From Ascidiella aspersa (taxonomy: Eukaryota): a stretch of DNA of 64,000 nucleotides. This document shows, in pieces, positions 1 to 46,900 of the stretch (the stretch's first letter is position 1; every line of letters begins with the position of its first letter). The notes below the pieces were generated by a model. That model was not told where the DNA came from. It saw nothing but the letters and a program-made list of their open reading frames with translations, and did no database searches. The DNA lies in NCBI GenBank assembly GCA_963924565.1, contig OZ004608.1:25296001-25360000 (forward strand), written 5' to 3'. The position numbers and the translations under genes were made by a program.

Positions 1-3000
1 AACTGGAAAAGCAGCAACGGCCCTTGCCTTACGGTCGTCCGCCGCTGGATCATACAATGATCAACCGCCTGCGGCACAACATGCGGTGGGCCGGAAGCGA
101 TAAGGTCACGTCCAGGAGGAATGTCGACGAAGCCTTTCACGTGTCGGACTTTTCCTCGCCCGATTTGCGGTATGACGGAAGCGTAGCCGGACTCGACATC
201 CGTAAAACTTTGTCCAGCTATGATATGAGTCAAATCAAGGACAACTCGACCTCGCTTGCTGGACGCCACCACGTCCGATTGCCGCCAATCAAAGCCAGAT
301 TTCAGCGACGTCAACGCAAAATGCTCGACATAAAGGAGAAGACAACTGCCGACAGAAAAGCGTCACTTATCAAGGGATCAAGAAAGAGCTTCAGCGAAGA
401 GCCTTCTATCCCAGAAGAGCGATACATCCCTGGGAGAAAGCAAAGCGCGGATGACCGCGATGAACGTCCCCTTAGGCCTCTCGACGGTAAGCTAGTTAAC
501 ACGTGGACATTGTTTATATTCTATAATTATTTTAACAGGTCAGTGATCACTGATGATGGCATTAGAAATTGCCGAAACGTTTGAAAATAAAGCATGTCGT
601 TATTTTCACCATTAAACTTATGAACATATCCGTATATAGTGTTCTATTTTATCAGGAAATTAGTATATAATTTAACAGGAAATTAGTCGTTCAAAGCATC
701 TAGCCTTTATGAAACATTTTTCCGTAATAATGACTTCCTTGGCGAAGGAATTCAATCTGTAATGCCCTTTTACCGCGAAACTGCACTCTTTTTTAAATCA
801 ATTTTTAAAATAAAGCAAAGTCCCGGACCCGTGAAGGTTCTTTGGGCCATTCGCCAAGCCGTTTAATAGCGTCCACCTCCTCCACGAGCGGAATAGCAGG
901 AGTGGCACCGCGCGCGAGAAGCAAGGAAGCTGACACTCCAACCGACTCCGAGGGAAGTTTCGGTAAATTTTTGACCAGTTTTGGCTATAGTACCTTACAA
1001 AAGGCGATTCCTCCAACGTGTTAACTTGTTCTGATGAATATTTGTTATAATTGAAATGCTGTGACTGGAAGTCATATGGAATAATGAAATATTTTGCCTG
1101 GGCAGTTCCGTATTCGTTTTCCTGCACTATATGTTCATTATATTTAAAAGTAGGACTTTGCTTCGAATGGCATATGTCGTACTCTATATAGTCTAGAGCA
1201 CAGCCAAAAAAGTATTACTTTGTTTCAAGTTATATTTTATGCTATAAGCATCCAATAGTGTATAAACGTTTTCTATTCTAATAACATTAAGGTAATACGA
1301 GATTTCGACGCTTGAAGAGATTAAAAACGCTAAAGAGCTTAGGAAAACAGGACGGAAAAGGAAATTCTCCTATCTACCGACACGTCAAACCTAAAAGATT
1401 GGTAAACTACTTTGTTATCCCTTTTTGTTTTGTTTTGCGGATGTACGTGGTACTTCTAGGTACATTTATGTTACATATACCTGTAAGTTGAACAATTAGT
1501 CTGCAAACAACACGCAAATGAAAACAAAAACAACACGCAATTCCATTGCTTCTATTTGCATAAATAAGATTCGCTAACTAAAAAACTGAGATAAAAATTA
1601 ACGAGAAAATACCGCGGGCCGAGTCCCGTGAAAACCAGCTAAAAAATAACAAAAGGCCTCTTTTTTGATAATGTTAATTCATAGCATATATATTTAAGGT
1701 TAGGATAACAAAACGTATTCCAACATGCGCCTATTTTAGGACGCTCTGATGTGGAAGTGGTATATCGCGATGCGCTTGGCCGTGTGGCTGTCGCGCCTCT
1801 GTAAGTGTCACCGGCTCATGGTGGATGACATTTTTAACATCCGGAGCGGCACCACGAATGAGGACGATGACGTCACAGCGGAGTCGGGAAAGCGAGAAGT
1901 GCTCTTCGACTTGACGGACTACAAGATGAAAAATCAGGTGCACTAAAGTAAAAAAAAAAACGAAAATCGAACGGCGATTGCAGAAAGTAGATGTTGATGA
2001 TTTTCGCGCTGTAAAGGCATCGCATTTATTTACTCATGGTGTTGCTGATTTGCAGAAAAATGCTACACCGTAGGAAAGTCTGTTGTCTGTGAAATACTAC
2101 GGCGTCACAAAAACAATACGTTATTACCTGAAATTCTCTTGATCTCAATAACTGTAAGTCAGATAAGAAAAGTTACATTGTTTTCGTTTCAACAGCTTCG
2201 TCTCTCCGATACGACGCGGCGCATATTAACAATGTCGCCAAGCATGCGCAGCGACAAGGAAATAAATTTGGTAAGCCTAATAAAGTAATATGTGTAGTAT
2301 TTTTTTAGCTTGTGAAACCACATTGGGTACGACGTTTGCTCAGCTCGCACTTGTATGAGTTAACCTACTTGAAGTGGCACGACGGATAATGGCAGCTTAT
2401 TTACATAAGACTCCATCATTTCGCCACTTTCAGTCGAAACACGCGGGCCCCGGCGGTCTCAAAATGTTTCCCGGCATCCCATTGTTTAGGGGCAGGCCCT
2501 GGTTAAGTAGCAACACTCGACGGCTGGACAAAATAAACTTACGCCGCTCCAAGCGATGGTTTACAGCGTATTTCAAGCACGCGACTGTGCAAATAGAAAG
2601 GCGAAGGTTTCATTCCGTCCTGGATCGAAGTGTTTTGAGGCCGGGGCGTGCTATGCCGGCGGAAAAGCGACTTGTCTTGTTTTCTTCGGCAGGTTCAAGC
2701 GTCGCTTCGCAACATCAAAGCCGTCTCCGATTACGCCACCGCCGTACAAAAGCAGATAGGAAGGCACGGTTATTTCGTCGGGTACGTGAAGCGCTTTACC
2801 CAGGATAAACTCTCTGGTCTTGGTTGGAAATACCTACGTCGACCATTTAACCTATGTCTGTGTCCCAAAACGGCTAAAATCACATCGGAACGTGCTGTGC
2901 TGTTTAGGTAGTTTAACAAAGGGATCCGCAGGTTTTATCCCGTCAAAACATGTAACGTCACTATGTATGAAGTTTTTCTAAGGCGTATAGATGTCATTTG

Positions 3001-6000
3001 TTGAGACACTTAAGATTACATTTTTTCTTAGCGTTACACTAACTTTAATATACGAATCTATTAAACCCAATGGATAAGTAAATAACCTGTCATTTCTAAT
3101 ATTAGCCAAAACGGGTAAGATTTGGTTTATTTTTCAAGTTCGTAGACGTGGGGCCAACCCTTTAAAACCAACTCGCGTTTCAAGCGAAAACAAACGTCCG
3201 ACCGCTGCCGTGTATCTTACGGACAGACCCGGGTACCTAAACAAACCCGGGTTGGCTTTATCCGCACAGTGTAGCTTTGTTTATACCGTTCAAGGTAAAG
3301 TTTGTAATGTTTGTTTTTGCAGGTTCGACGACAAGCGCATTGTGGTGCGCGAGGGACGGCGGCCCCTGAACTATTATATCCTGTTGGCGGGCTCGGCCGT
3401 GGTTATTAAGGAGGACGAATCCGGCAAGACCAATCCCGTGCAACTGATGCGACGCGGGGACGTGTTTGGGGTGCGTCGATCTTGTGCTTTGTGCGCTGGA
3501 ATTGTGACAGACGCCGAGTTATGGTTATAACATCTGTTGAAAGAGATTTTGCTTACACCGCCGATTTCTCTTCAACGGGAATTTGGCCTTTTGTTCTTTT
3601 GTAAATGTCAGATTCCTCGAAAATTGTTTGTGACGTGGGATGTAATGCAAACAAAAGAAACGTCCGACCCAATAGGTTAACTATTAAGTTAATCAAGCAA
3701 AAATATACCAATTAGATTAAAATGGTTTAAGCACAAGCTTAAACCATACTTGAATTTGTAACTAGAGACCACCCGGATTTGGCTAACAGATTGATAGCCA
3801 CTAATCACTATCGGCCTAAATTGGTAATTTTTGTTAAAATAAAATAAGCGAAGGTTTTATATTTGTCAACCCCCTATTGCGGGGAAATGAACTATATGAC
3901 AACCGTTTTGGAAGTTTGCTGAGTATCCACCTTATTTCAGTTTCACACATGGGTGAACAGCAGGTGTTAGAATCGAAACTGGCTCGGGACTTAGGACTTG
4001 GGACTCTGGATCCAGAATCAAGTTTGATGTTTGGCTGGAGTCGCACTTGGATTGTTTTTAACGGACTCGGTAGCCCTGGTTTGTGTGACCACTTGACCAG
4101 CAATTATTGTTGGTATAATTTCCCGTAAGATTTGTACACCGAAAACCATCGCAGACTGACTGAATCTGTCGATCAATGATGCAATCAGGATAAGATAGAA
4201 AAACAACTTGTCTGCAGTAAGGTTCGAACTCACAAACTCCGGTCGTACCGGGACCGTCGCTCTACCAATATAGGAGCGAGTCGAGAAACAATCATACGCC
4301 AATGCTTGCCACATTTTGCTGGTACAAGCAATTTCACATTGAAGGGGATCAACAGTATCGTATCAATATTCAATGAAACATGCTCACACATGTTAATAGA
4401 TTAGAGTTGTTAACAAATATATGTGTGAGCATGTTTCATTGAAGATGGATAGTACCAGTAATTATTACGTCTATAGTTTTAACGCCTGCTAATTAAGGTC
4501 AAACGACATCTAACCGTTCTCAACTTAGGAACACGAGATCTTGGAGGATATACCCTGGAGGTGGACAGTAGTGACCACCGGCCAGTGCGAGTTTCTTTTG
4601 CTGACCAGGGAGATGTACCGGAACATCTTTATCACCGGAGGAGGCGGTGGTTTGTTCGCAGATCCCGACCGGGGAAAGTTTTTGAGGTAATGCATGAAAT
4701 GGCGAAACGCTGCTTAGTGTTCTGTGACACTTGAAAAATGTAAACTGTGGTTGAATTACCTTAATGATGTCCTATGTAAAAGCGATAGCCGTTTTTTGTC
4801 ACACGAAACATCTAAACACAATTAAATTCACGTTAAAATAGTCATTCTTTTCTATATACGAAAACAATACTGTAAACACATAAACAAAGTATTTACCGCG
4901 TAAAATATCTTCTTATAGTATCAAGCTCTATTATTTAGTTCAGGTTAGTCTAATAATTTTGCAAGAAAAACTCGATTTTTTCTATTTTAATAACACGAAT
5001 GAGGCCTTAAAAGGTTTGTGAATTCAATTGGCGTTTTTGACAAATTTTGAAAGAGTCCGTTCGGAAAACTAAACGTTTTTCCAAATCTAAAAGGGAAAAA
5101 AGAAAAATGCAAAAAGGGGGATACGCTAACTTGTTGTAGACATGTAGTCTCCAGAGAGAGTTCTTTACATAGCTATATGTGCCTAATCTGGCAAAATCTG
5201 TCCAAAATAAGACTATTAGACGGTGTTTGCGTTGTTTAATTCTGATTCTGGAACGCGTTTTACTGTTTGTTTTAGCATAATTAACTCAGGTTTTCCTTCG
5301 CGGTCCCAATGAAACGGCTTTGATATTCTGCAGAATAGCTCGAATGTTTACATTACATACAGGCCCAGTTTTTAGATCATTTTTTTCTTTATTATGTTAA
5401 TAATCAAATACAACCTTTACTTCTTTCGCTTTTCAACTGCTTTCGCCACAAATTTGCGAAAAATTTACCAAATGTGTTTGCTGAACCGTTGCATACCTTT
5501 TTGTATACGTTGGTTTTTGCTAGACGTTGGTTTTTAAATTGCTTATAACATCTTTCGTACAAAGGTCGATTTCGTTGCTCCAGCATTGGCCAACCGAATT
5601 GCTGAACGAAAACCCGAATCGCTGCCTTTTCCGGTACTTTAAGCGCGGCGCACTACTGGTGCGGGATGATTCACAAACCGAGTGGATCTACGTCATTAAA
5701 TCGGTAAAGCTTCAGTTTATTAAACTCATTTTCTTTGTTTTAGACTTGCTGGTCTCAGAGTAAAAAATATTTGTTTTAATGACGGCAAAAAATAGAAAAG
5801 GAAAAAGCAAATCTAATCAAAATAATACAGGGAAGCTGTTCAGTGATGAAGATGCTGATGGTGGATCATTTGAGCAAAGGTCAGATTGTGAAGAGGTTGG
5901 CCGAAGAACAACGATTCAGTCCAGAAATAAAGCTTACGCCGCGACTCGTTCCTAAATCAGAAGCAACCGGTGAAGCAGGTTGGTTGTCGATTTAAAAAAC

Positions 6001-9000
6001 TAAATTCATTACAATATTAACAATCGACAAATATTAAACCCAGGAGAAACACCACATAAAAATGATGTAAGAATATCATCGACTTGCTTTGATGTAATAC
6101 ATGCATCACCATCTATACCTTGTATAAACTCTTAGAGATTAGTTACCAAAAGTATTTTATTGTTCAATCAATTAACATGAAATAGTGATGCTACTAGGTT
6201 GCTTCAAAAAACATTTGTTTTATTACAAGACCACTTGCAAGCATTAAAGCAGAAGGAAGAGGAGGAACAGAACAAAGCGAATGAAGCAAGCGTTTACCAA
6301 CAACTAGAAATGAGTAAGATTATGTTCATTCCTGCAATATTCTACAACTAATAAGTATATATTGACTTATTGATTTCACTCTAAAAGGTACTGTTCTGAA
6401 AGAACTCAATCCCGACGTGATCGGTTTATCTGCCTCGCCGAACGCCGACATAGACGAGTACGACCACAGAACCGAGTTCCCCATGTCTTCCTTTCAAACA
6501 GAGGATACAAAATGCAAAGCGAAGCCCAATCCGCCTTACGATATCTCGAACGATGAAGAAGCAAGCGTTAAACTGAGACAAGCGCACGACAACTTGACCA
6601 ACGGCTTCCGTCTGAGTCGCCACTCAGACCGCCGAAACCCGCGAACTCCCAGTCCCATGAAAGCGGCATACCTCAGGACTGGACCGACACCATTAGACAG
6701 CCGTCAATCGAATGGGGGCGCGGACGAGGCGACCCGGACACAATTGATATCCTTCGACGACGAGTTGGGGGCAGGGGTTGGCGTCGATGATAATTTGCCA
6801 ACCGAGGGGGTTATTACAAACGTCGAGCTTCACCCTCCGAATCAGACGAGTCATCAGCAACCGGTTGATGTGAGCAGTATCTTCCTTAGCACTATAGTGA
6901 GTCGGCTATACGGTTAAACAATAAAATCGTAACGTATAGAGTAGATAATTTATGCCTGTAACATGACATTGCTATTATTTTGAGGTAGCTGTGACTAACT
7001 GTCGGTATTTAAATATATTTTAGGACACCAACATTTTCAATGCACATTTCGTAGTGCAGACTTTTGGTGTTTACTGAATAAACGTCGACCAGCCTATGTG
7101 CGCTCCCAACAAATTAATTCATAATTCCGAAAGCGTCGTAACGAATTCCTGGTAAATTTTATTTATTATGCCTTCAGACCAATGAATTTTGTTGAACAGT
7201 ATAAAAGCAGAAAAAAAGTGTTTGCTTGAAGATTTTTTATCCTTCTTGGTAGAGTCCAGCAGCAACCGCCAAGTCTGGAACCAATGACAAACTTCATCCC
7301 ACACATATCAACGTGAGGAAGCTTACCGCTGGTGAGGTTTTTGGAATTGGAACGACCTTGTACGCGAATCAGCCAAGCTTGGCCCTTGTCAGCAACGGGG
7401 CAGAGTGTCTGATGCTAAACAAGAAATTCTACTTGGAAAACGCCAGCGAAGAATGCTTACGTAGCTTGCGGGAAGCGGTAGGTGCAATTTTGGGAGTCGG
7501 TCTATTTCTGTTTCGGACAGAGCTTCACACCAAACAATTATATGCAATTTTGTTGTCTTAAGCAACGACAATTATTCTAAATAAGATGGGCAAACGTCAG
7601 GGCCGGCAGTCTTTTTTGGATTTAGATACATTTACGATTGGTCAACTTAAGCTCTTAAATTGCAGCAATTAATATGACAAAAAAAGTCCAACAAAAAAAA
7701 TAAAAGAAACATAACTATACAATAATTTTATTATCGATTAACATTATTGATACGCGATAATTAATTCGTTCCACAACTAAGTTTCTTTATTGTCATCAAC
7801 ATTTGCTTCCTACTAATGAGCTTTGATACATTTATTCTAGGTCCTAGATTCTAGTCTAGAGCCTCCGCTCCAAAATAGCAAACATTTTTTGTCGAGTGTT
7901 TAACGATTCTAAGTGATTTGTGCCATCGAATCCTAAAATAACCCGTTTGTTTGAAGTGGCTCTATAATTTTTGAGATGTCGAAATTTTCAAATTTTTACT
8001 AGATCAAATTTGCTAACTTAAAAAACTATTAAAAACTTTAAACGGAAATATCAGTAGGCCAAACATGCATTTTTTAAATATTTTTGAACCAATATACATT
8101 CCATATTCGCAACCATTTATTCCAATACGTTTAATAGTACCGTACTTTTAGCATTCCATTTATTTAGTAAGGTATTTGAAACCAGGGCTGCAAAGTTGGA
8201 GTGGGACTCGGAACTCGGGACCCGGGACTCGAGGAGTCGGTTTGTTTTGCTAGAGTCGGACTCGGGACTTGGGTAAGACCATGTAGGACTACCCAAGTCC
8301 CGAGTCCTACTTGCGCAGTATCAAATTTTAAAACTGATATGGTTGCCAACTGGAAACTGCAAAGGTGGAATATTTTCCAACCATGTATTGTGAGTCAATG
8401 AATTATACGACACCCCTTTATTGGATTGCTGAATATCCACCTTACTTAGATGCGTAAACTGGCGGAAAACAGGCTGTAGAGTCAGGGCCGGATTTGGGAT
8501 TCGTACACTTGGCCGGAGTCGGACTCGGGGCTCGGGAGTCGGACACTGGTTTATTTTTTTTGGCTGGAGACGGACTCAGGTTATTTTTAACCGACTCCGC
8601 AGCCCTGTTTGAAACATTCGGTATTTAGTGCAAGCAGCATGTGTATGTTGTTGTACTGTATAGCCAAATTCTTTGCGAAAGATTTTATTTTCTTAGTTGT
8701 CGGTAAACTGTGCACCATCAGACAGTAAACCAGGAGATGCCATTGTAATAGTAAGTTTGTCATTCATATTAACCACAATTTCTTTGTATTGCTAAATATA
8801 TACAAACTGCAGTAGGCTACTCCGTATCATAGCTTTGACGCCACTTGTTTTGGCGAACAAAAATTTGTTGTTAACTGCTAATATTGCACAAATTTTTGAA
8901 TTTTTGCTTAATTTTCAAATAAAAAATATTATGTAAAGAAAATTAGAGCCCATTTGCAAAAACCAAGGTAATTTTTGGATTCAGTATCATAATAAAACCC

Positions 9001-10519: not shown

Positions 10520-13500
10520 ATGGATTTCAATTTTGGTTTTATCTTTTTGACCATTTTTGCGGCAACCTCTGTGATCAAGGGCCAAAGACAGTGCAACCTT
10601 TACTGCGATGAATCTGAAAGGCGATTTCCCAATCCTCCTAATCCTAGTTACCCACCTACCGAAAGTCGGGGTATGCCCGGCAAAAGGGGTCCAAAAGGAG
10701 AATCGATTCGGGGTGAAAAGGGTGAAACCGGGAGCTGTGAATGCAACATCGGCGAGAGACTGGAAGAAACTGTTGAAGAGCTACAACAGGAAGTTCGTAG
10801 CACCTATCGTAAGTTATTTTTTTGATTTGTGCTATAGGTGTTTCTACATTATACAAAAAACAAACCTTACATGAGTAGGCTATTAAACAACACATTTTAC
10901 AAGTATTAAATAAGCACACCCTAGAAGTATAAATAACTAAAGAAACATCTCCCAGGAGTATGAAATACCTTTCATTTATAGGCGAAATTTGTGTACCGTA
11001 AAACATTATACGCACCTAAAACCACGTTCAGGTTATTATTCAGCTTTACGGGAAACCAGCTTGTGCTGATAAACATGATTAGCAAAATCTTGATAAACCT
11101 AATAGAATGATCGCTTGATAACCCGAACCACTTTATGCATTGCTGAAATTAAGGAGTACGTACGTTAGTTTTAAACATCTCTCACGCGAGGGCCCCTTGT
11201 AAACCATAATGATGATCATTGCAAAATCTATGGTGAAGCGAATTAAGTTGTTGTTATTATAATATAGGCGACACAAAGGATTTCATTATAAGGTTTTGCG
11301 CAAAAAATTCAAAGTCACAAATAAGTTTTATTGATCCTATAACGTTGTAAATTATATTAATCATATAACGTTGTTTTTACAACAAGTTAATTGTCGATAA
11401 AGTCACAGGTATTTGAAAAATAATATTTTAGAACCAAAAGTATGCTATAAGACAGGGGCGTGCAACCTTTCATACAGCCGGGCCAAATATGTATTCGGAT
11501 TTGACCACGGGCCACTTGCATGTCTTGTCGTCTAACTGTTAGTAAAGCGGTCGGCAAACTTTTCGTTGCGGCCCAAAGTAGTCTTTTCAGAGCTACTTAA
11601 AGGCCCACTACATAAAACCACTACGAAACAGTGGCGGATTCAGGGGGATATTTGGTTTTAAGGGGAAACATTCTACGGCGCTTAATGGCCCAAACACTGC
11701 CATGCTATAATATAAAACATTATACCAAAAAAAGAAAATACGCGCAAAGCGCGAAAAAATTGCGTTTAAATAGAGTTAAATAAAGTTGGCAAAAAATATA
11801 GTTTTACAGACCACATTTGTGGGTCTCTCCAAGCTGAGCCAATTTAAAACATTATATGCCACACCAATTGTTAGAATAAAGTGCAATGAATGTACGGCTA
11901 TCATGCGGCTAACAACTACGGTACATGATAACACCAAGCTATTCAAAAATAACTCGCGGTCTACAGTTGACCTAACACTGTGTTAGTGACTACCACAAAA
12001 AAAATTGCTCACACAGATACGTTGAACCGAACAATGCCACCTTAAAAGCGACGAATTTTCTCAGCTGTGGAAACTTATTTAGATCGAGATGTTCGCGGTA
12101 AAAACTACTTTTCAGCTGCGCAGAGAGAAATTTGTTTCTTTTTTTTACAACACATGAACATTGAAATTGAATGTAAAACAATTACATTTCAAATGGGCGA
12201 AAAAGATCAAACGGACATTTTTAATATGCTCTATTTACATGATCATAAGTAGCTATTCGAAAGCATTTCAAGAACAAAAAAATTGCAGCGCTCAGTGCAA
12301 TTCATTTTCACACAAAGTTGTACACTTTCAGCAACAGCATCCAAAACACATTTTGTAGTTTTATTTTGTTAGCAGGCCACATTCTATTCTAATATGTTAG
12401 CAGGTCACATTCTATTCTAATTCTGATACACTAAAAATTCACATGCTATATAAGGCGACCTAGACTAAGGAACAGTCAGAAAGTTTCAATATTTTAACAG
12501 TTACGTTACCTGAATGTTTATAGTGGTGCGGGAAAAAATCAAAGCACACCGCGGGCCACATATTTTGGTTCCGCGAGCCGCATTTGGCCCGTGGGCCGCA
12601 AGTTGCACGCTCCTGCTATAAGACACAAAATTTGTTTCTTTTCAACAAGGCTAATGTTCTGAATGACTTTAATGGTCGACTGTGTAAATGAAAAGAGTGT
12701 TGTAGGGTTATTTGATGTCAGCTGGTCAATGCTTTCGCACTTATGTGATTACGTCTGTGTTGTTTGCAATGTACTGCGTTGTGACAGATTTATTTGTTAT
12801 ACGCATTCTGCGTCGAAGCAGTGCTAACTCACACCCTAGTGTTACATCTTAATTGGCATTTCGTTTTGGCTTTATAAGTCTTAGGGATTGGACCTAGATC
12901 CAGTTCCTTTTTAAGACTCACCAGAGTAACTTACTGGCTGACTATAGTGTATCTTAACTGGGCCCACACAACTTATTCTTAGCTATCGACTTGTGCTGAA
13001 TGGCATCTGGTATATGTTAACTTGTGTCGCCGATCTATAGTTCGAAACTGGTTGTTCGTTCATCAACTAATACAATTCTAATACCTGAACGCCTTGTGAA
13101 CGCCTTGTGGCGGCTCGGGAGTTAGATACGCACCTTGAAGTTGGAGTCAGAACGGAAGTGTCAATTAGAACGCTCTTCTGTTGAATAAACTATTATAAGT
13201 TTAACAACCTAAACTCGTGCTCCACAGTGTCATGTGTAAGATTACTCTTTACTTCGGTTTATTTTTACTTATGTTAATTACCAAACAACAACATAGATCA
13301 CGTCTAGGCAATCTATCACCCAAAAATAAAAATATCACATTGAAAATAATAAAATAAGCGTCAACTAGGAATTTATGTTGTATGCAGAAAAGAAGAACCA
13401 TCTTTTTGAAAGCTGCAAGGAGATTTTAGAACAAGGAAGCCATCAGGGCAGCGGCGTGTATTACATAAGAGATGCAAACGGAATTGAGTACCCGGTTTTC

Positions 13501-15220
13501 TGCGACATGAGCACCGGTGGAGGTGGCTGGACTCTGGTTGCTAGCGTTCACGAGAACAACCTCTCCAACAATGGAAGATGCACGTCTGGCGACCGATGGT
13601 CCAGCACACAAGGATCCACAGCTCGTCCGAGAGGAGATGGAAACTGGGAAAATCTCAGCACCTTCGGCCACCTATCCTCGATCACGAGTGACGATTACAA
13701 AAACCCCGGATATTTCGACATCGGCGCAAGCAACGTAATGATTTGGCAAGTGGCCAACGACACGCCACTCTTGAACTGTAACTCGTCGTCTTACCTTCAA
13801 TATCGCACAACCGACAACTTTCTACGAAACTACAGGGGCAACCTGTATCACTTGTTTAAGGACTTCTTTCCAATAAAGTCCGGAACGTACAACAGGGCGA
13901 CCGACAACGGACCTGCCCCGGCTGTACATTTTGACAAAGGAAGCGCAGCCGACGTTTTGCAACATCAAGCACCAAATGTAAAGCCTTATATAGATGCGGG
14001 ATTCATTCAGGTAACGTTTATCTGTGTTGCTTCTGCAAATCTTTACTCTGTTGGCCCTAAAAAATAAGTTAGTTGTTTGCGAAGCAAAATATAAGATCTC
14101 TTGACCCGGATGTTAGTTGAAACATAAATACCAAAACTTAAGGCGAGAAAAAATGAGTTTACAGGTTGACATATATTTTCGTAAATTGTTTTCAATTGGT
14201 TGGAAAACTGGCAAAAAGTACAAAAATTATTCTAATACAAAATGATAGGTAATTTTTCACTCTAAGGCCATGTTTTTAAATTTTGTAGTCTGCGTCACAC
14301 TACAAAAAGAGGAAAACGCATACCCTGTAGGTTCTAAAATCATTTCAGCGTTACACTTGAAAGGCTTTATGTAGATAAATTGTCCTTATTGTTAGTTCAA
14401 CAATATGAATTTGAAATCAAGTTTGTAGAGCTCTTCTGGCAAATGTAATTTTTTATTTCGACGTTTCGACGTCCTATACAGGTCGTCTTCATCAAGGTAA
14501 ATAACACTGAATGCGACTAGTACAGTGCACGATAAACAAAGGAAAACAGAAAAAAGAATGGAACGCAAGCATGTTACAGCGCAACGCAAACACCACGCGA
14601 TAGCGAATGATTGGGCCTCTAATCTTTAAGCAGGTGCTTGTAGCACGCTGACAGCAACACTGATGTACTACTAGTCGCATTCAGTGTTATTTACCCTGAT
14701 GAAGACGACCTGTATAGGACGTCGGAATAAAAAATTACATTTGCCAGAAGAGCTCTACAAACTTGACATTATGCCTGGCAGCAATAGCTTATATAATGAA
14801 TTTGGAATGTTTTGGTAGTAAAAAGTTAAATATTAAAACTGACGTGAAAAATTATACGAGGTTGGTAGTTTAGCACAGATATTTTTCTTGAATAATTTTT
14901 GTTCAAAGATGAAAAAAATACGAAACTATTTTAATAAGAAACCAAAGATACTATTAACCATTAGGCTTCAATCAAAGCCTGTTTTCGATTAGTTTCGCGT
15001 TTTAAACGGAGAGAAGAATGCATTTGCAATGTGCCCCGGTGTCAGGGCCAAAGCGTCGCATCACAACGCCGAGCATTCTTGCATTGGATCAACCGACACG
15101 GCTCACGTCAATTACTGTGGAGATCTCGCAGCTTTAGCTTGGGATGGCATTGGAACGCACACAGGATGGAGTGTAGATGCTGTGCTTGCCAATACCGCCT
15201 TCCTTATTTTCTATCGTTAG
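10520..15220 (+). CDS. Secreted intelectin-family lectin with N-terminal collagen-like stalk and coiled-coil neck (~379 aa)
   Basis: Exons 10520-10808, 13388-14010, 14993-15220 join in frame. Signal peptide MDFNFGFIFLTIFAATSVIKG; Gly-X-Y run GMPGKRGPKGES-IR-GEKGETGS; neck ERLEETVEELQQEV; intelectin motifs SCKEI, FCDMSTGGGGWTLVASVHENN, CTSGDRWSS, GDGNWEN, SDDYKNPGYFDI, GFIQFRV, NAEHSCIG and terminal LIFYR. Confidence 0.9.
11453..12615 (-). mobile_element. Non-autonomous hAT (Charlie/SPIN-like) DNA transposon with transposase remnant, in lectin intron 1
   Basis: TIRs caggggcgtgcaac...gttgcacgctcctg; exact 8-bp TSD ctataaga (11445-11452, 12616-12623); minus-strand peptide KFPQLRKF..LFGSTYLCEQFF (11990-12181) matches the hAT C-terminal dimerisation motif. 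Confidence 0.85.
12698..13293 (+). mobile_element. Possible solo LTR
   Basis: Termini tgttgt...acaaca, internal AATAAA near 13184; flanks aagag and tagat match only partly, so the TSD is weak. Confidence 0.3.
14417..14766. mobile_element. Foldback of two inverted Penelope-like terminal fragments, each with a hammerhead remnant, in lectin intron 2
   Basis: Near-perfect ~100-bp arms (~14417-14523 and ~14668-14766); arm consensus ccCTGATGAa-GACGACCTGTATAGGACGTC-GAAACGTC-gg-AATAAA. Confidence 0.7.
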
Positions 15221-16587
15221 GCTTATTTTTTTGTGAAAGTTTTATATTATCACAATGTTTAAAAACATCGAAATTTTAAGTAGATCACCAATGTACAGGC
15301 CCTTTTCGTTAACTGTGACATTTATTGAGCTTTGAGTCAATAATATTTAATTTGCCTAAACAATTACTAAGAACAGCCGGTAAAGCATATCATTCCTCGC
15401 TGTGCACTTTGCCTTACGACTAATTAAGCAACATGTAAAATTCTAAACCCGTCATGGCTTGAATATAATTTGCTTTAGAGTAGGAAGGCTGGCAACTATT
15501 GGATAGACATTAAACAAGAAGGGCGAAATTGTGCCGAACTAATTTTATGTGATGGTAATACGTCAATGAGTAAAATTACTTCCAACACTGATGTTTGTTG
15601 CATATTTTGTCATTTAATTTGAAGATTGACCAGCTGCAATGTGTATATACATATTGTATTGAGGGCTGCAGAGAGTGATTTAATCAGCCCAGAATTTGAC
15701 AAAGTCGAGTGTTGAAACAGCACATGATGTGCCGTCGCGACAATTGTCAGCATTTGAGAATTTCTAGCCGTTTACAACTTTTTTTATTTCTATGTAGTTA
15801 TCCCAAACACACAAGCTCTATAAAATTTACTTTCTGCATAGTATATTTAAAGCTATTGTCATGGCCTTCGCAAACATTAATGGACCACGTGGCTGTGGAC
15901 ATACTATTCAGCTGATGCCATATCTTATCCTCAAATGTTTTACCATTCATCACCTCAATACGACAGGCCCTACCAGGCAACAAGTTTGGATTACAAATTA
16001 TGCATCACTATGGACTTTGTGGTATTAAATTTTAAAGTAAAAAAACAACAACAACAAAGAGATCAAATTAATTGTTCTACATATGCGACTGATGAAGTTG
16101 CTCGAAACCCCGTTGGGCCTAGCGACGAACAACATCATTTCAAATAATAGTTCAAGTGTAAATTACAACGAGTTGTTTTACGGAAGGACCTTAAACAATG
16201 TTGTAATTAAGGTTACATGACAGTGTTGAGAGCATGATGTCAAGGATTTAGGACTATTTTGAACGATATCCGGACCAAACTGTCCTTACGTCGCCGGTAT
16301 GCATGATCTACATACATACTCCGCAACTCACGTTTGCTTTCCCTTTAAAAAAACTAATTAGGTTTGTTATTATTTATACTTATCTGTGTATATTAGTGGA
16401 AAAAAGAGGGCGGGCAAAGCGACAACAAGCGCGTTTTATACTCGTTCGATATGGGTCGAAGACAGCAAAATAAAAACAACTATAGGACTCGATTTTGACC
16501 GCTGGTGTGTCATGCATCGAGCAGCTCGTGGCTACACCGTTTGTACTTTTACAAAATTTACTACTTAGTGTGAGCAAAGAATATTCA

Positions 16588-34923: not shown

Positions 34924-37900
34924 TCATTCAACATGTTCTTCAACACGTTGATTCTTGAAATGCATCATTGTCCCGTTTAGCATTGTTTTGTGGCGAAAGA
35001 ACTTCTTGCTGGTTTCGAGGTACTTCTGAATTTCTATCACTGATTTGCTTAGGGTTTCCGGTACAAAAAACGCTATGTAGAAAATCTGCAAAATATGAAA
35101 TGAAAAAACAATGATGAAAAGATATATCAAATAAAAAACCTGGAGGTAAAACAGTTTATCTAATTCTAATCTATGTTTAGTTTTGGATGCTTGCTATAAG
35201 AAACGTTGTTCGAAACGAGAGAATCGACTGATTTTAATGATTCAATAAATAAAAGTTTTTATTACTATGGCGTTACTTGAATTTTTTCTTATTACTATGG
35301 TGTTAACTGGACTTGGCTTGTTATAATAAGACATAGACTGGGTTTTAAAATGGGTAACTCACAATTTTAACTAAGAATAATTGGCGTCTTTAAAAAATAT
35401 TGCATTATTGGAATAAATGATACCACATTTATTCTTTGACTTATATTTTTTATACCGTTTTGTGTATAATAATGTTGCGCGACACTTATATTTGTGATCG
35501 CTTGATTCAACCGACATTTAGATAAATCATTAGGTAATCTCAACTAAATATAGGGAGGGCATAACATTATCGACATCAGATTTGGATCAATTGTAATTTG
35601 TAATTGATATAATTAATTACGGTTTTTAAAGTAATTGTAATGTAATTGATGCATTTTTATTCTGTAAAATTCCAACTGTAAATGTAATTTGCTAACATTT
35701 TGGCTAAATTCATTGATACTGAAACAAACTTAATTTGAAGTTTCCATAATGTTTCACGTTGTTTATTTTCTTTTGGGAAGCGATGAGCCATAAACTGTTT
35801 TCCGCAGCAATAGAAAACTTAGAAAACGTTAATTGCAATTTTCTAATTGTAATTGATGTAATTGATGTAATTAACTACCGTTTTTAATGTAATTGAAACA
35901 TTTAATTTTCGACAACTGTGATTTTTTTAAAATTATCAGTCTTCGTGTGCCCTGACAATGCAGCATTTACCTCAGCGACGACTAGAAGCAGAAAAGGCAG
36001 ATATGCCAGTCCTCCCCAAGCTTCCGGAGTGAAGGGGATCACAAAAGTGACGCCTGCGCCGGAAAAACAGAACACAATGCCGGACATCCTCAAGGCATTG
36101 GGGGGACCAATCGAGACCCCGACGATAACCATTAACATTGAGGCGACAGCCAAGTATTTCATGCCTGAGATTCGATCGCTGGTAGATGTGGAGACGATAA
36201 GAAGCCAAAACCCGATCGAGCAGATTACCAAACCTGGCAAAAGCATCTTGCGAGATTCGACTCTAGTTAGCAAGGTGGTCAAGAGAGCTGTGGTCATCGA
36301 CATAGGCACGAATATACTTAATTAAAATATGATTTTCTGTGTTTAGTTGTCGTTACTTTTGATTAATTAGTATCTAATGTGTCGACAAGCAAATCAGCTT
36401 GAACTATTTATCATTGTTTTAGCAATTTAAATATAAAGTAAATTACAGCTAATTTTTATATAGGGATATTTTGAACGTTCTGTCATTTAGAATAGCTATA
36501 GAGTCGCTTTAAACCAACTCTGTGCAAATTGCCCGATTTGTTCACATATCGTTATTGCGAGTTGCCAAGCACTAAAATCCACTCTTGGTGCCAAAGCCCA
36601 GAAGTGTCGAACTTTGACTCACAAAATGTCAATGCGCTTATATCTCGTAGATCGTAAGAGAGACTATCATGTGGGCGCAACGCGAATACGTACATAGATT
36701 ATTTGGTACATGAACTATAATTAAGACAATTTGTTTTTCTAAAGATGGCTGCAGATTTTGGCATTTTCAATAACCTATGTTGTTAAAAGTAGAATTCTTC
36801 TGGTCAATTCCAGCTGCTTCAAATAGTGTGTATACTGAAATACAGCCTGTACTCCCGCGGCCTGAGGTGCAAACTGCAGGAGCACAACGGCGATAAGCTG
36901 ACGCCTATTTTTTTTTTTGGGCCAGTTGTCAATTTTTGACGCACCGAGGCTCGTTCCATATGCTCGTCGGCCTCCATCTCAGCCTTCCGGGCCTCGTGCT
37001 CTCTCAACACTTCTTCATCAGATCCGACCCCCATCCGACGAAGTAGTTTTAGCGACGGCGGATTTTCCTTCGCCGCTTTCACTCCTGCAATCTCGGCGCT
37101 CCGTTCCTGCTTCAATTTCCATGTGACCGTGTGTGGTATCCAGGGAAGACAAACAAGATAAAATAGCGAAAACAACCCTGGAATGGCTAGTAGTATCGGC
37201 CATGTTGTCGCGCTACCTAGAACAGCCGGGTGGCGTAAACCGTTCACCACTCCAGCGCTTATCTGCATTAACCAGCCAGGCAAAGTTTGGTAGAAGGCAG
37301 AGGTTTTTCGTTAAGCCAGCTCTGCTACGAAAAATGGTGCAACCCTGAAAGACGTTCCTCGCGCGATGCCGTTGAGTAAGCGACCGATTATGAGTGTCTC
37401 GTAGGAGTTGACCAGATAATTAAGCCACTGGTGACATGATTTGCGTTGAAAGTACAAAAGCTACGTGAATGATCGTCATGACTCCTCGTCGACTGAAACG
37501 TATAGGCAAAATAAAATGTCAAATAACGACAGAAAAATGCAATGTAATGCAATATTAAATGTGTTGTTTAGCTAAAGTGAAATAATAGAGAATGGCGGTA
37601 GGTGTAAATAAAATATTGACCCGTGAAAGAAACATCACTAAAAATTTTCACTTATATCGGTGGCAATACCAAGCGGAAGTTTCAGTACTAGTCCGATCAT
37701 ACAGCACTGATATCAAATCGCTATAGTAATTTGTACTATGATTTTGCGTTCAGATTTGCGATTAACAAATATAAATAACATTTAAAAAAAATCGAAAATA
37801 TCGTTAAAGATGTACCAATAATTGAAATATATATAACAGATGGACCACTAGTTAAATGTATATTTTTTCATTCGCATAAATAGCCTATTTTTGGTATATT

Positions 37901-43993: not shown

Positions 43994-46900
43994 TTATTCC
44001 ACGTGTTCTTCCGCGTGTTGATTGCTGAAATGCATCTTGCTCCCGTTTCGCGCGCTCTTGCGGCGAATCGATTTCTTGCTAGTTTCAAAGTATTTCTGAA
44101 TTTCCGACACTGATTTGTTGCGGGTTTCCGGTACGAAAAACATTATGTAGAAAATCTGCAAAATTAAAACACATGTACTGAATGATATCGGGATCAATTT
44201 ATTTTACCGTCGTCTACAGCAATGCTCGCGACCCATTGTTGGGTCGTCGGACTGTTTATTTTTCTTTTGGAGTCCGACTCAGTTGGGTTTAACCGATCTT
44301 GCAGCAATGGTTTGGTTTAATAACAATAACTTGATCTGAACCTGGCTTTCTATAATATACAGTTCAAACTATTCTGTTATAGATAACTATTATGCTTAAC
44401 ATACTGTAAAGGTAATTTGTAAATATTACCGTATGAATTAAACGATTAATATTTACGAATGTTAGGTTTCGAAAATCGTTAATACAGTAGATAAAATAAT
44501 TACAATTAGATAAAATAACTTCCTGAGCAAGAGGTGGGAAACACTTATTTTCTATTTACCTCAGCGACGACTAAAAACAGAAATGGCAGATATGCCAGTC
44601 CTCCCCAGGCTTCCAGAGTGAAGGGGATCACAAAAGCAATGATGGCGGCGGTAAACCAGAACAAAATGCCGGAGATCCAAAGGGCATTAGGTCTGGTGAC
44701 CTGGGTTGTGACAAGAGTGGGCAAAAGCAGGGCGGTGAGAATAGGACCGAGCGAGATTCCGACAATGAGGAGTAACATGGCGGCGACTGCTACGTATTTC
44801 ATGCTCGGGACTCGGTCGCTGATAGATGTGGAGGCAATAAGAAGCAATAACCCGATCGAGCAGGTTGACAAACCTGCCAAAAGCATCTTGCGAGACCCGA
44901 CTCTGGTTAGCACGGCCGTGGAGAAAGCGGTAGTCATCGACATAGCCACGAATATACCTATAGTTGTAAAATGATTGTTATTTTTTGTTTGTTTTTTGTT
45001 ACTTTTGATTAATCAGTTTTTATTTTTTGTCGGGTGCAAATCAGTTGTAGATATTTAACTTACGTACTTTACTGACGTATTGGCGTTCACAGGGTAATTA
45101 TTTAAGAAAACATGTGGGCAATGTTTATTAGTTGAAAAAAGAGGCAATGTTAATAACTGAGAGGTACAGCAACGCGAAGCTGACGCAGTCGATTTATTTT
45201 CGGATGAATAAATATTCTTTGAAAACCTAAATTTTAATTAAATTACGGGTAATTTTAGTATCACGATATTTTAAACGTTCCGCCATTGAGACTAACCATT
45301 TTCGTTTTAGCCAACCCTGTCCATAATTTTTTCCTATTTACATATCGTTATTCTAGTTGTCAAGCACTAAAATCCACTCAAAATACAAATGCCCTGAAGG
45401 CGCGGACGTTGACTAACAAAAATGTCAATGCGCTTATATCTCGTATCCGTAAGAAAGATTAACATATGGGCGTAATTTGCGTGCACTATAATAAGAACAA
45501 AAGTCTACCTTGTTGAGAACCCTAATACAAGAGAGGCATTTTCAATAACAAACCTATGGTGTAGAAAGTAGAATTCTCCTGTTCAATTCCAGCTGCTTCA
45601 AATAATGTGTTAGTATACTGAAATAGAGCCTGAATTCCCGTCGCCTGAAGTGCAAACTGCAGCAGAATGGCGGCGATGAGCTGGCGTCTGTATTTTCCAG
45701 TTGTTAGAATTTGGCGCACCGAGGCTCGTTCCATATGCTCGTCGGCCTCCATCTCAGCCTTCCAGGCTTCGTGCTCTCTCAATACTTCTTCATCAGATCC
45801 GACCCGCATCCGACGAAGCAGTTTTAACGACGGAGGATTTTCCTTCGCCGCTTTCACTCCTGCAATCTCGGCGCTCCGCTCCTGCTTCAGTTTCCATGTG
45901 ACCGTGTGTGGTATCCAGGGAAGACAGACGAGATAAAGCAGCGAAAATAGCCCTGGAATGGCTAAAAATATCGGCCAATTGGTCGCACCACCTAGAACAG
46001 CCGGGAGGCCTAAACCGTTGGCCACTCCGGCGCTTATCTGCATCAACCAGCCAGGCGGAGTTTGGTAGAAGGCAAAAGTCTTTCGTGAAGCCAGCTCTGC
46101 TACGAACAATGGAGCAACGCTGAAAGAAGTTCCTCGCGCGATGCCGTTAAGGAAGCGCCCGATTATGAGCGCTTCGTAAGAGTTGGCCAAATAGGCCACT
46201 GGTGACATGAGTACCGTTGAAAGAAACAGGGCTACATGAATAATCGTCATGACTCCCCTGCGGCTGTGCAAAAAAGCATATCGTGTTGTCAAATAACAAA
46301 AAGTATAATGGGAAAAGTAAAATATCGCTTGCGTTATCCAGCTTACAAAAAATGCATCAAACCACCAGGACGCAAAGTATACTTGGGCATTTAGCAATAG
46401 TTTCTCATGCAATGTATATCAAAAGTAACCCTGTAAATTCGTAGACTGCGTGTCATAAGAATGCCCTACTGTATGTTTTGTTGCAACCTACTTACAAAGC
46501 AAAGAATTTGAAAATAGATAAGTAACCTAAAAGTAACTTTCCTACTGTATATAACACGGATGAGTATCAAATTTGTAATGTTAATATATAAAAAAGAACT
46601 TTCCACAAATCAAACCTTAAAGTTTGAACCCAGAACCTGCTGGTTGTCGCACCTAAAGCTGATCCAACGATGAGCATTGATTGACTTAACGTTATGATCA
46701 AACCACTTGAATCGTTGGTCGCTGGAATACCAAAACGTTTCTGTAGGTAAAATTATTATTTCTTAAGTTAACAGTAAGCTTCTTATCAGGTCAGTGATTT
46801 AATTTCATAAGGGCATAACGATTTTGCTATAGCAAATTTGCCTAACCTCTATGTAGTGATACATGATAGGTATTTAATTCGGAAAGCCGATTAGCGATAT

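What the first reader, a model, noticed from the sequence alone, without database searches (positions are those of the whole stretch)
10520..15220. Collagen-stalk intelectin with a MASP-binding-like motif
Seen: signal peptide, Cys-containing N-segment (CNLYC), about 7 Gly-X-Y triplets with one interruption, CEC, coiled-coil neck, then a full intelectin domain; the stalk sits in its own exon joined by a phase-1 intron. Established: vertebrate intelectins lack a collagen stalk, and MBL and ficolins bind MASPs via Hyp-Gly-Lys-X-Gly-Pro. PGKRGP fits that motif except that X is usually aliphatic. Inference: an exon-shuffled, collectin-like pattern-recognition molecule linking intelectin glycan sensing to lectin-pathway complement. 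Collagen-bearing intelectins have been reported in amphioxus, so the MASP link is the newer part.
Basis: partly seen in the sequence, partly recalled or inferred. Interest (0 to 1): 0.7.

Follow-up and report, generated by a model that had tools for sequence, protein, structure and literature searches.

The report
Sea-squirt intelectin on a ficolin-type stalk
This is a real, transcribed sea-squirt gene whose exons are predicted to join an intelectin (a type of sugar-binding immune protein) to the short collagen stalk that this animal's ficolin-like and collectin-like genes also use; the stalk keeps a lysine that possibly docks a complement-activating protease, which is untested, and the same design occurs in other sea squirts.

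Summary
Three exons (10520-10808, 13388-14010, 14993-15220) give an unbroken 379-aa frame: signal peptide, CNLYC, 4+3 Gly-X-Y triplets with PGKRGP, CEC, coiled neck, full intelectin. All three exons are transcribed, but the 10808/13388 junction read was not seen. A Clavelina protein joins the same two parts in one chain.

The gene is not unique. Collagen-stalk intelectins occur in Styela, Clavelina, two Ciona species and amphioxus. Five more lie in this genome. The stalk exon belongs to a genome-wide cassette, usually ending in phase 1, that also precedes fibrinogen, C-type-lectin and F5/8 heads.

The motif lysine is kept in 8 of 9 named tunicate collagen-intelectins and 0 of 3 amphioxus ones. 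It is rare in this genome's long collagens (4.2% of X positions). Ficolin-like genes here carry the same PGKRGP. A MASP with the matching CUB1 acidic residues and C3-like genes are present.

Against: the largest cassette family has Arg there (1 of 30 has Lys). The one ascidian lectin shown to bind MASP lacks collagen. An intelectin-MASP link is already reported in lamprey.

Verdict: a new variant of a known kind. MASP docking is about even odds and untested.

The parts
10520..10808 (+). Exon 1 coding part: the whole stalk cassette (signal peptide, Cys segment, collagen, CEC, neck), ending in phase 1
   Evidence: RNA depth 13.7 and 6.3 in its two bins; 39% identity over 89 aa to the N-terminus of Clavelina P0001, pairwise E 3e-15
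10520..10582 (+). Predicted signal peptide M1-G21 (cleavage site inferred)
   Evidence: hydropathy; alignment to P0001
10583..10669 (+). N-segment with Cys25 and Cys29 (CNLYC) and a Pro-rich spacer; candidate inter-trimer disulphide hub (inferred)
   Evidence: sequence; QRxCNLYCDE shared with P0001
10670..10738 (+). Short collagen, G51-C73: 4 triplets, a two-residue break (IR), 3 triplets; uninterrupted (8 triplets) in P0001
   Evidence: residues 49-75 form the confident interface of the homotrimer model
10676..10693 (+). PGKRGP, MASP-binding-like motif; Lys55 codon at 10682-10684
   Evidence: sequence; conservation and background
10736..10808 (+). CEC and coiled-coil neck (2-3 heptads)
10809..13387 (+). 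Intron 1 (GT..AG, phase 1), containing a high-copy element at 11453-12615
13388..14010 (+). Exon 2: fibrinogen-like lobe and most of the intelectin domain
   Evidence: PF00147 E 3e-6 on its first 52 aa; XEEL and intelectin-1 E 2e-57; RNA depth about 10
14011..14992 (+). Intron 2 (GT..AG, phase 0), containing a foldback repeat at 14417-14766
14993..15220 (+). Exon 3 coding part: C-terminal intelectin segment with the glycan and calcium site, and the stop codon
   Evidence: RNA depth about 11
15221..15628 (+). 3' untranslated region (end approximate, by bin)
   Evidence: RNA depth 14.3 and 7.1, then 0

Best explanation
The gene is a transcribed ascidian intelectin whose first exon encodes a short collagen stalk of the kind used by this genome's ficolin-like and collectin-like genes; the exons are predicted to splice into one secreted chain that likely trimerises through the stalk, likely binds microbial glycans through its head, and possibly docks the host MASP through Lys55 to deposit C3. 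Step by step: (1) exons, frame and transcription are shown, and splicing of exon 1 to exon 2 is strongly inferred; (2) a homotrimer through collagen, CEC and neck is predicted; (3) bundles of trimers through Cys25/Cys29 are inferred from MBL and ficolins; (4) calcium-dependent glycan binding is inferred from 7 of 9 kept site residues; (5) Lys55 entering the calcium-bound acidic pocket of MASP CUB domains, followed by C3 cleavage and opsonisation, is inferred from conservation alone.
For: Frame and exons; stranded RNA on all exons. Clavelina P0001 holds stalk and head in one chain and is the nearest row in the tree (58% identity, support 94/69, not strong). Homotrimer model: score 0.40 against best control 0.02, runs agree in at least 83% of contacts, pLDDT at least 63. 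That mark was reached by 21 of 30 solved self-pairs and 0 of 23 single chains (animals 7 of 16), and a collagen pass may be from memory. Lys at X within the first four triplets in 8 of 9 named tunicate collagen-intelectins, which fall in four separate tree groups, and in 4 of 5 divergent paralogs here. Background Lys at X is 4.2% of 1635 triplets. Ficolin-like genes here carry PGKRGP, PGKKGP, PGKSGP or PGKLGP at the same place. Ciona proteins and one paralog have the textbook PGKAGP. A CUB-EGF-CUB-CCP-protease gene lies at G000:C4:5.82-5.84 Mb. Its CUB1 exons hit MASP-1/3 and MASP-2 first and keep the LE, YDY and SDYSNE stretches. Thioester genes of C3 type are present. In rat MBL only the Lys is essential; Ser at Xaa is tolerated and Glu is not (PMC2856262 passages).
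Against: No binding datum of any kind. Arg at Xaa is outside the published consensus and was not among the substitutions in the passages I read. The largest cassette family, with C-type-lectin-like heads, has Arg in place of the Lys: of 30 loci read, 26 Arg, 2 Gln, 1 Glu, 1 Lys. The site may therefore need only a basic residue, or serve another purpose. The motif also sits on F5/8, TSP1 and unclassified heads and in long structural collagens. Halocynthia GBL binds MASP without a collagen region (PMC8605247 passages), and lamprey LSSL associates with MASP-1 in a paper with no mention of collagen, so a stalk is not required in these animals. Amphioxus collagen-intelectins (3 of 3) and two others lack the Lys. 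The stalk is very short and broken two triplets after the Lys. Single MBL trimers bind MASP about 1000-fold more weakly (PMC2592599 passages), and higher oligomers were not tested. Shared descent of the cassette makes the conserved examples non-independent. The junction read was not seen.
Confidence: 0.45

Rival explanations
1. The stalk is only a trimerisation and avidity device. The protein works as an agglutinin or opsonin like other intelectins, and the basic residues are inherited with the cassette or help the short helix fold.
For: Stalks without the Lys exist in amphioxus, in C. savignyi P0165 and in paralog L206. The biggest cassette family uses Arg. MASP association in ascidian GBL needs no collagen. 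Seven close paralogs here show no collagen exon within about 15-17 kb upstream, so the stalk looks dispensable for an intelectin.
Against: Lys at X is uncommon in this genome's collagens (4.2%), yet it stands in the first four triplets across stalks that otherwise share little beyond Gly. A purely structural stalk would be expected to favour Pro there.
Confidence: 0.38
2. Lys55 is a real docking site, but for another partner, such as a different CUB protein (tolloid-type protease, CUB receptor) or a phagocyte receptor for defence collagens, rather than MASP.
For: The genome gives at least 149 CUB matches. C1q and MBL are reported to interact with BMP-1/tolloid-like proteinases (PMC5717261, search listing only). 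The motif rides on many head types.
Against: A true MASP with the matching CUB1 acidic residues is present, and most heads that carry the motif are lectin-pathway types.
Confidence: 0.13
3. Exon 1 does not belong to the intelectin, and the fusion is a mis-join.
For: The junction read was not seen.
Against: Matching phase and open frame; equal stranded depth on the three exons and none between them; P0001 has both parts with similar spacing; P0021 carries such a 370-aa chain on a 1267-base contig.
Confidence: 0.03

Closest known systems
Clavelina lepadiformis CAK8694746.1 (P0001; cluster also named intelectin-1b-like)
   Same: Signal, QRxCNLYCDE, short collagen with PGKRG, CxC, coil, intelectin; 58% identity in the head
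   Different: Collagen uninterrupted (8 triplets) and motif PGKRGG; a predicted protein with no functional study seen
Styela clava and Ciona collagen-intelectins (P0007, P0036, P0116, P0126, P0146; Ciona intestinalis LOC100175333 = P0193; C. savignyi H2ZPX6 = P0212)
   Same: Collagen stalk with G-K-x-G-P before an intelectin-type head
   Different: Separate tree groups; 6-17 triplets; some are about 600 aa with extra sequence
Amphioxus collagen-bearing intelectins (P0039 = M1RBI1, P0025, P0125)
   Same: 8 triplets, then CxC, coil and intelectin
   Different: No Lys at X and no N-terminal signal peptide in these records. That they were described in print as collagen-bearing is my recall (Yan et al.; not read)
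Lamprey LSSL (PDB 7e1e; PMC9682848, passages and section 24 read)
   Same: Intelectin reported to associate with MASP-1 and promote C3 deposition; most site residues shared
   Different: No collagen mentioned; icosahedral assembly; association seen only after target binding
Ficolins (vertebrate; Halocynthia ficolins seen as reference titles only)
   Same: N-terminal Cys, collagen with P-G-K-x-G-P, fibrinogen-type head
   Different: The head here is an intelectin: PF00147 covers only positions 4-48 of 221; the stalk is much shorter and has a coiled neck; Xaa is Arg
MBL and collectins
   Same: Cys segment, collagen, coiled neck, trimeric lectin head (PMC2592599 passages)
   Different: No C-type lectin domain
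Human intelectin-1 and Xenopus XEEL (PDB 4wmq, 6usc, 4wmo)
   Same: Whole head aligns end to end
   Different: No collagen in any vertebrate-named entry among the 120 homologues listed; here one site Asn is Gly and the loop that carries a site Glu is three residues shorter

Membership tests
Intelectins (X-type lectins) | N-terminal fibrinogen-like lobe | tested here: met
   PF00147 27.5 bits, over the cut-off of 22
Intelectins (X-type lectins) | Intelectin-specific domain through to the C-terminal FYR | tested here: met
   E 2e-57 (exon 2) and 1e-11 to 1e-13 (exon 3) to XEEL, LSSL and intelectin-1
Intelectins (X-type lectins) | Ligand and calcium site residues | tested here: inconclusive
   Against the LSSL residues named in PMC9682848 section 24, read off the alignment with an offset of one: E262, residue 279, E281, H282, D301, W307 and W316 are kept (7 of 9); N261 is Gly and E293 has no counterpart. 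H101, G112 and D150 were not checked against LSSL.
Intelectins (X-type lectins) | Calcium-dependent binding of microbial glycans | not testable with these tools
   needs a glycan array
Ficolins | N-terminal Cys segment plus collagen region | tested here: met
   C25, C29 and 7 triplets; Pfam Collagen is below its cut-off
Ficolins | Full-length fibrinogen C-terminal recognition domain | tested here: not met
   only profile positions 4-48 of 221 match; ficolin-3 aligns over 44 residues only
Collectins (MBL type) | C-type lectin domain | tested here: not met
   no Lectin_C match on any exon at E up to 1
Collectins (MBL type) | Collagen plus coiled neck forming a homotrimer | tested here: inconclusive
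   model supports it (0.40 against control 0.02; may be from memory); not shown
MASP-docking defence collagens | Lys at X in P-G-K-x-G-P | tested here: met
   Lys55; conserved in relatives
MASP-docking defence collagens | Aliphatic residue after the Lys | tested here: not met
   Arg56; consensus from PMC2856262, PMC3179595 and PMC2592599; shared with ficolin-like genes of this genome
MASP-docking defence collagens | Host MASP with CUB acidic site, and C3 | tested here: met
   MASP; C3-type; Pfam did not call ANATO or NTR on single exons
MASP-docking defence collagens | Oligomers of trimers (bouquet) | not tested
   only a single trimer of the stalk was modelled
MASP-docking defence collagens | Calcium-dependent MASP binding and complement activation | not testable with these tools
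   bench work; the host CUB1 is split over exons and no whole MASP protein was retrieved

The most novel reading that the evidence does not exclude
Tunicates use a mobile, single-exon 'MASP socket' (signal, Cys hub, short collagen with P-G-K/R, neck, phase-1 end) that has been plugged onto intelectin, fibrinogen, C-type-lectin, F5/8, TSP1 and other heads, with over a hundred search matches in this genome. Collagen-stalk intelectins would then be a third class of collagenous lectin-pathway initiators beside MBL/collectins and ficolins, kept in tunicates and absent in vertebrates.
Probability: 0.35. Interest if true: 0.72.

Novelty: new variant of a known kind. Interest (0 to 1): 0.45.

Why it matters
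If Lys55 docks MASP, tunicates wire intelectin glycan sensing directly into complement through the same collagen site as MBL and ficolins. A cassette that can be attached to any head would explain how an animal without antibodies widens what its lectin pathway can see. It gives a direct test of an open point: whether collagen-bearing ascidian lectins use the vertebrate-type MASP site at all, since the one ascidian lectin shown to bind MASP lacks collagen. If not, the gene is an ordinary member of a tunicate intelectin subfamily.

Tried and rejected
Junction evidence: the joints table listed only repeat-derived joints from the two contig runs, so the junction is left open. Exon 1 as a query for longer proteins found nothing at E up to 10, and the MASP CUB1 half-exon found nothing; both are weak blanks. 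The raw count of the G-x-x-G-K-x-G-P-x-G DNA pattern (70) is not above its reversed control (60), so only translated hits were used. A collagen ORF 11 kb upstream of paralog L018 is a (GAK)n repeat, not a stalk. The collagen exon 17 kb upstream of paralog L009 belongs to a separate C-type-lectin-like gene. CUB-protease loci at C2:14.77 Mb and C5:23.46 Mb are not MASP by domain order. The NTR search did not land on the thioester loci. The Atlas gave only sub-0.9 leads to ficolin-like clusters. Own-genome Sushi and Collagen family lists were capped at 150 and missed short exons. The tree backbone is unresolved (11 of 42 branches open), so single against repeated gain of the stalk cannot be told. 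Ten paper searches found no paper on a tunicate collagen-intelectin or its MASP motif. Hayashibe 2017 (seen as a reference), Yan 2013 (reference), the amphioxus ficolin paper and Wesener 2015 were not read (searches found three of these not held), and they may already describe part of this. No supplements were read. Earlier scan notes held nothing on this gene.
Full report
Observation. Exon 1 holds a hydrophobic leader, CNLYC, a Pro-rich spacer, four Gly-X-Y triplets, a two-residue break, three more triplets, CEC and a short heptad neck. Exons 2 and 3 align end to end with XEEL, lamprey LSSL and human intelectin-1. One RNA run, of which about 6 in 100 reads were read, covers all three exons on one strand at 6-14x and the unique intron bins at 0. 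The junction itself was not among the joints shown, so splicing is inferred. It is backed by Clavelina P0001, which carries the same N-terminus (39% over 89 aa) and head (58%) in one predicted chain. The best named hits are ascidian, so I read the genome as an ascidian.

The design is shared. Of 120 homologues listed (618 found), 7 have a collagen stalk, none of them vertebrate-named. Of 150 cluster representatives listed, 9 do. Together these are 15 distinct proteins: 9 named tunicate (Clavelina, Styela, Ciona intestinalis, C. savignyi), 3 amphioxus and 3 unnamed. Lys stands at X within the first four triplets in 8 of 9, 0 of 3 and 2 of 3 of these. The Lys-bearing ones fall in four separate groups on a tree with an unresolved backbone. 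In this genome the head gave 37 matches. Seven close paralogous loci showed no collagen exon within about 15-17 kb upstream. Five divergent, many-exon paralogs do have collagen exons, four with PGK (PGKAGP, PGKRGS twice, PGKQGP) and one without.

The stalk is a genome-wide cassette. A pattern for G-x-x-G-K-x-G-P-x-G gave 70 hits against 60 for the reversed control. On translation, 35 of them were stalk cassettes of this kind (signal, Cys segment, short collagen, neck), 4 more lie in the same tandem cluster as three that were read, and the rest were long collagens, chance hits or not read. Downstream exons are fibrinogen-type (Pfam-confirmed at 10 of 10 such exons scanned), F5/8, C-type-lectin-like (Pfam weak at 1 of 8; the rest judged by likeness), TSP1-like, or a Cys-rich unclassified head. 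By a crude donor score without RNA, 20 of 23 example cassettes end in phase 1. A search with a Lys-less cassette returned 116 matches of 129 scored, not all of them cassettes. Of the top 30 read, 26 have Arg, 2 Gln, 1 Glu and 1 Lys at the motif position. So exon shuffling is well supported, and the site is basic in most cassettes but Lys in only some families.

Is the motif more than chance? In 1635 triplets from 12 stretches of long-collagen genes here, Lys takes 4.2% and Arg 5.6% of X positions, and G-x-P-G-K-x-G-P occurs at 4 of 1305 positions. One 7-triplet stalk would carry it about 1.5% of the time. Four independent groups would have Lys in their first four triplets with probability about 0.0006, but shared descent makes this a sign of conservation, not of four separate origins. 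Ficolin-like genes here carry PGKRGP, PGKKGP, PGKRGA, PGKSGP or PGKLGP, so Arg after Lys is a common ascidian form. In rat MBL only the Lys is essential, Ser at Xaa is tolerated and Glu is not (PMC2856262 and PMC3179595, passages). Arg was not covered in what I read.

Partners. Crossing CUB and trypsin hits led to a CUB-EGF-CUB-CCP-protease gene at G000:C4:5.82-5.84 Mb. Its CUB1 exons hit MASP-1/3 and MASP-2 first and keep the acidic stretches seen in those chains; that these stretches bind calcium and the collagen Lys is my recall of the MASP structures. Five thioester loci were found. Those at C4:9.85 Mb and C3:35.8 Mb have a multibasic processing site, a Cys-rich anaphylatoxin-like exon and, at C3:35.8 Mb, the PVIH stretch. 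One exon of the first hits C3/C5-family chains ahead of alpha-2-macroglobulin. Pfam did not call ANATO or NTR on the single exons.

Structure. Three copies of the mature exon-1 product fold together at score 0.40 against a best control of 0.02. Runs agree in at least 83% of contacts, pLDDT is at least 63, and the interface runs over the collagen and the heptad positions. The mark was reached by 21 of 30 solved self-pairs and 0 of 23 single chains (animals 7 of 16); the calibration was for two copies, and a collagen may pass from memory. In the head, 7 of 9 site residues named for LSSL are kept; one Asn is Gly and the loop with Glu293 is three residues shorter, so specificity may differ.

Against the MASP reading. 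Nothing here shows binding. Halocynthia GBL binds MASP and activates C3 without collagen (PMC8605247, passages). Lamprey LSSL, an intelectin, is reported to associate with MASP-1 and promote C3 deposition, and the word collagen does not occur in that paper's main text (PMC9682848). The motif also occurs in structural collagens and on heads not known as complement initiators. Single MBL trimers bind about 1000-fold more weakly than oligomers (PMC2592599, passages), and oligomers of this protein were not tested.

Comparison and verdict. It is an intelectin by head, is neither a ficolin nor a collectin by their defining domains, and is built like them in the stalk. Collagen-bearing intelectins are in public databases for amphioxus and several tunicates. 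Ten searches of the open library found no paper on the tunicate forms or their motif, but key subscription papers were not held (other papers consulted: PMC6321704, PMC9316650, PMC11312191, PMC5465252, PMC3269628 and PMC10433773, passages only). I rate it a new variant of a known kind. MASP docking is at 0.45, a purely structural stalk at 0.38, and interest at 0.45. The broader lead, a mobile basic-site collagen cassette on many recognition heads, is more interesting than this one gene.

Noticed in passing
G000:C3:33.38-34.18 Mb and C3:1.96-2.36 Mb (L138-L166, L186): A very large tandem expansion (dozens of matches) of collectin-like genes with a PPGRRGPRG stalk and a divergent C-type-lectin-like head that Pfam barely recognises.
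   Followed up: partly
G000:C3:1.16-1.79 Mb, C2:9.62-9.64 Mb, C8:6.24-6.32 Mb, C6:26.69-26.70 Mb: Clusters of ficolin-like genes with PGKLGP/AGKLGP, PGKRGA (13 matches; one read) and PGKSGP stalks; the C3 set lies among long Sushi-repeat arrays.
   Followed up: partly
L128, L129 (G000:C3:21.13-21.14 Mb): Two genes with a PGKLGP/PGKVGP stalk, a Cys-rich exon and a head with no Pfam hit; by recall it resembles the fibrinogen-like region of contactin-associated proteins.
   Followed up: partly
L131 (G000:C7:349.5-359.4 kb): Two genes with a long single-exon collagen that starts with PGKMGP and is followed by a TSP1-like exon.
   Followed up: partly
L110 (C7:23.87 Mb) and L047 (C5:17.99 Mb): Stalk cassettes joined to F5/8 (discoidin) heads, one with PGKMGP and one without the Lys.
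   Followed up: partly
L061-L062 (G000:C4:5.82-5.84 Mb): MASP gene; its CUB1 has a five-residue insertion relative to human MASP-1/3.
   Followed up: partly
G000:C4:9.84-9.86 Mb, C3:35.80-35.83 Mb, C3:16.52 Mb: Three C3-like thioester genes; the last two look like close duplicates.
   Followed up: partly
window 11453-12615: High-copy element in intron 1 with 14-bp terminal inverted repeats and an 8-bp target duplication (CTATAAGA), hAT-like by recall.
   Followed up: partly
window 14417-14766: High-copy foldback element in intron 2, arms 97-98% complementary.
   Followed up: partly
window 1-7560 (+): Exons of a cyclic-nucleotide-binding-domain gene (PF00027).
   Followed up: no
window 35900-37310 and 44550-46420 (-): Two tandem sugar-transporter (PF00083) copies; the 36-37 kb copy matches far more weakly and may be partial.
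   Followed up: no
window 51360-61650 (-): Receptor-type tyrosine phosphatase exons with FN3 domains.
   Followed up: no
G000:C2:28.6-29.2 Mb (L021, L025, L026, L028-L030): A tandem array of more than ten divergent intelectin-like genes; no collagen exon was seen upstream of the three checked.
   Followed up: partly
L187:1134 (G000:C3:6.799 Mb): A perfect (GAK)n open frame of over 50 repeats that scores as collagen; probably a simple repeat.
   Followed up: no
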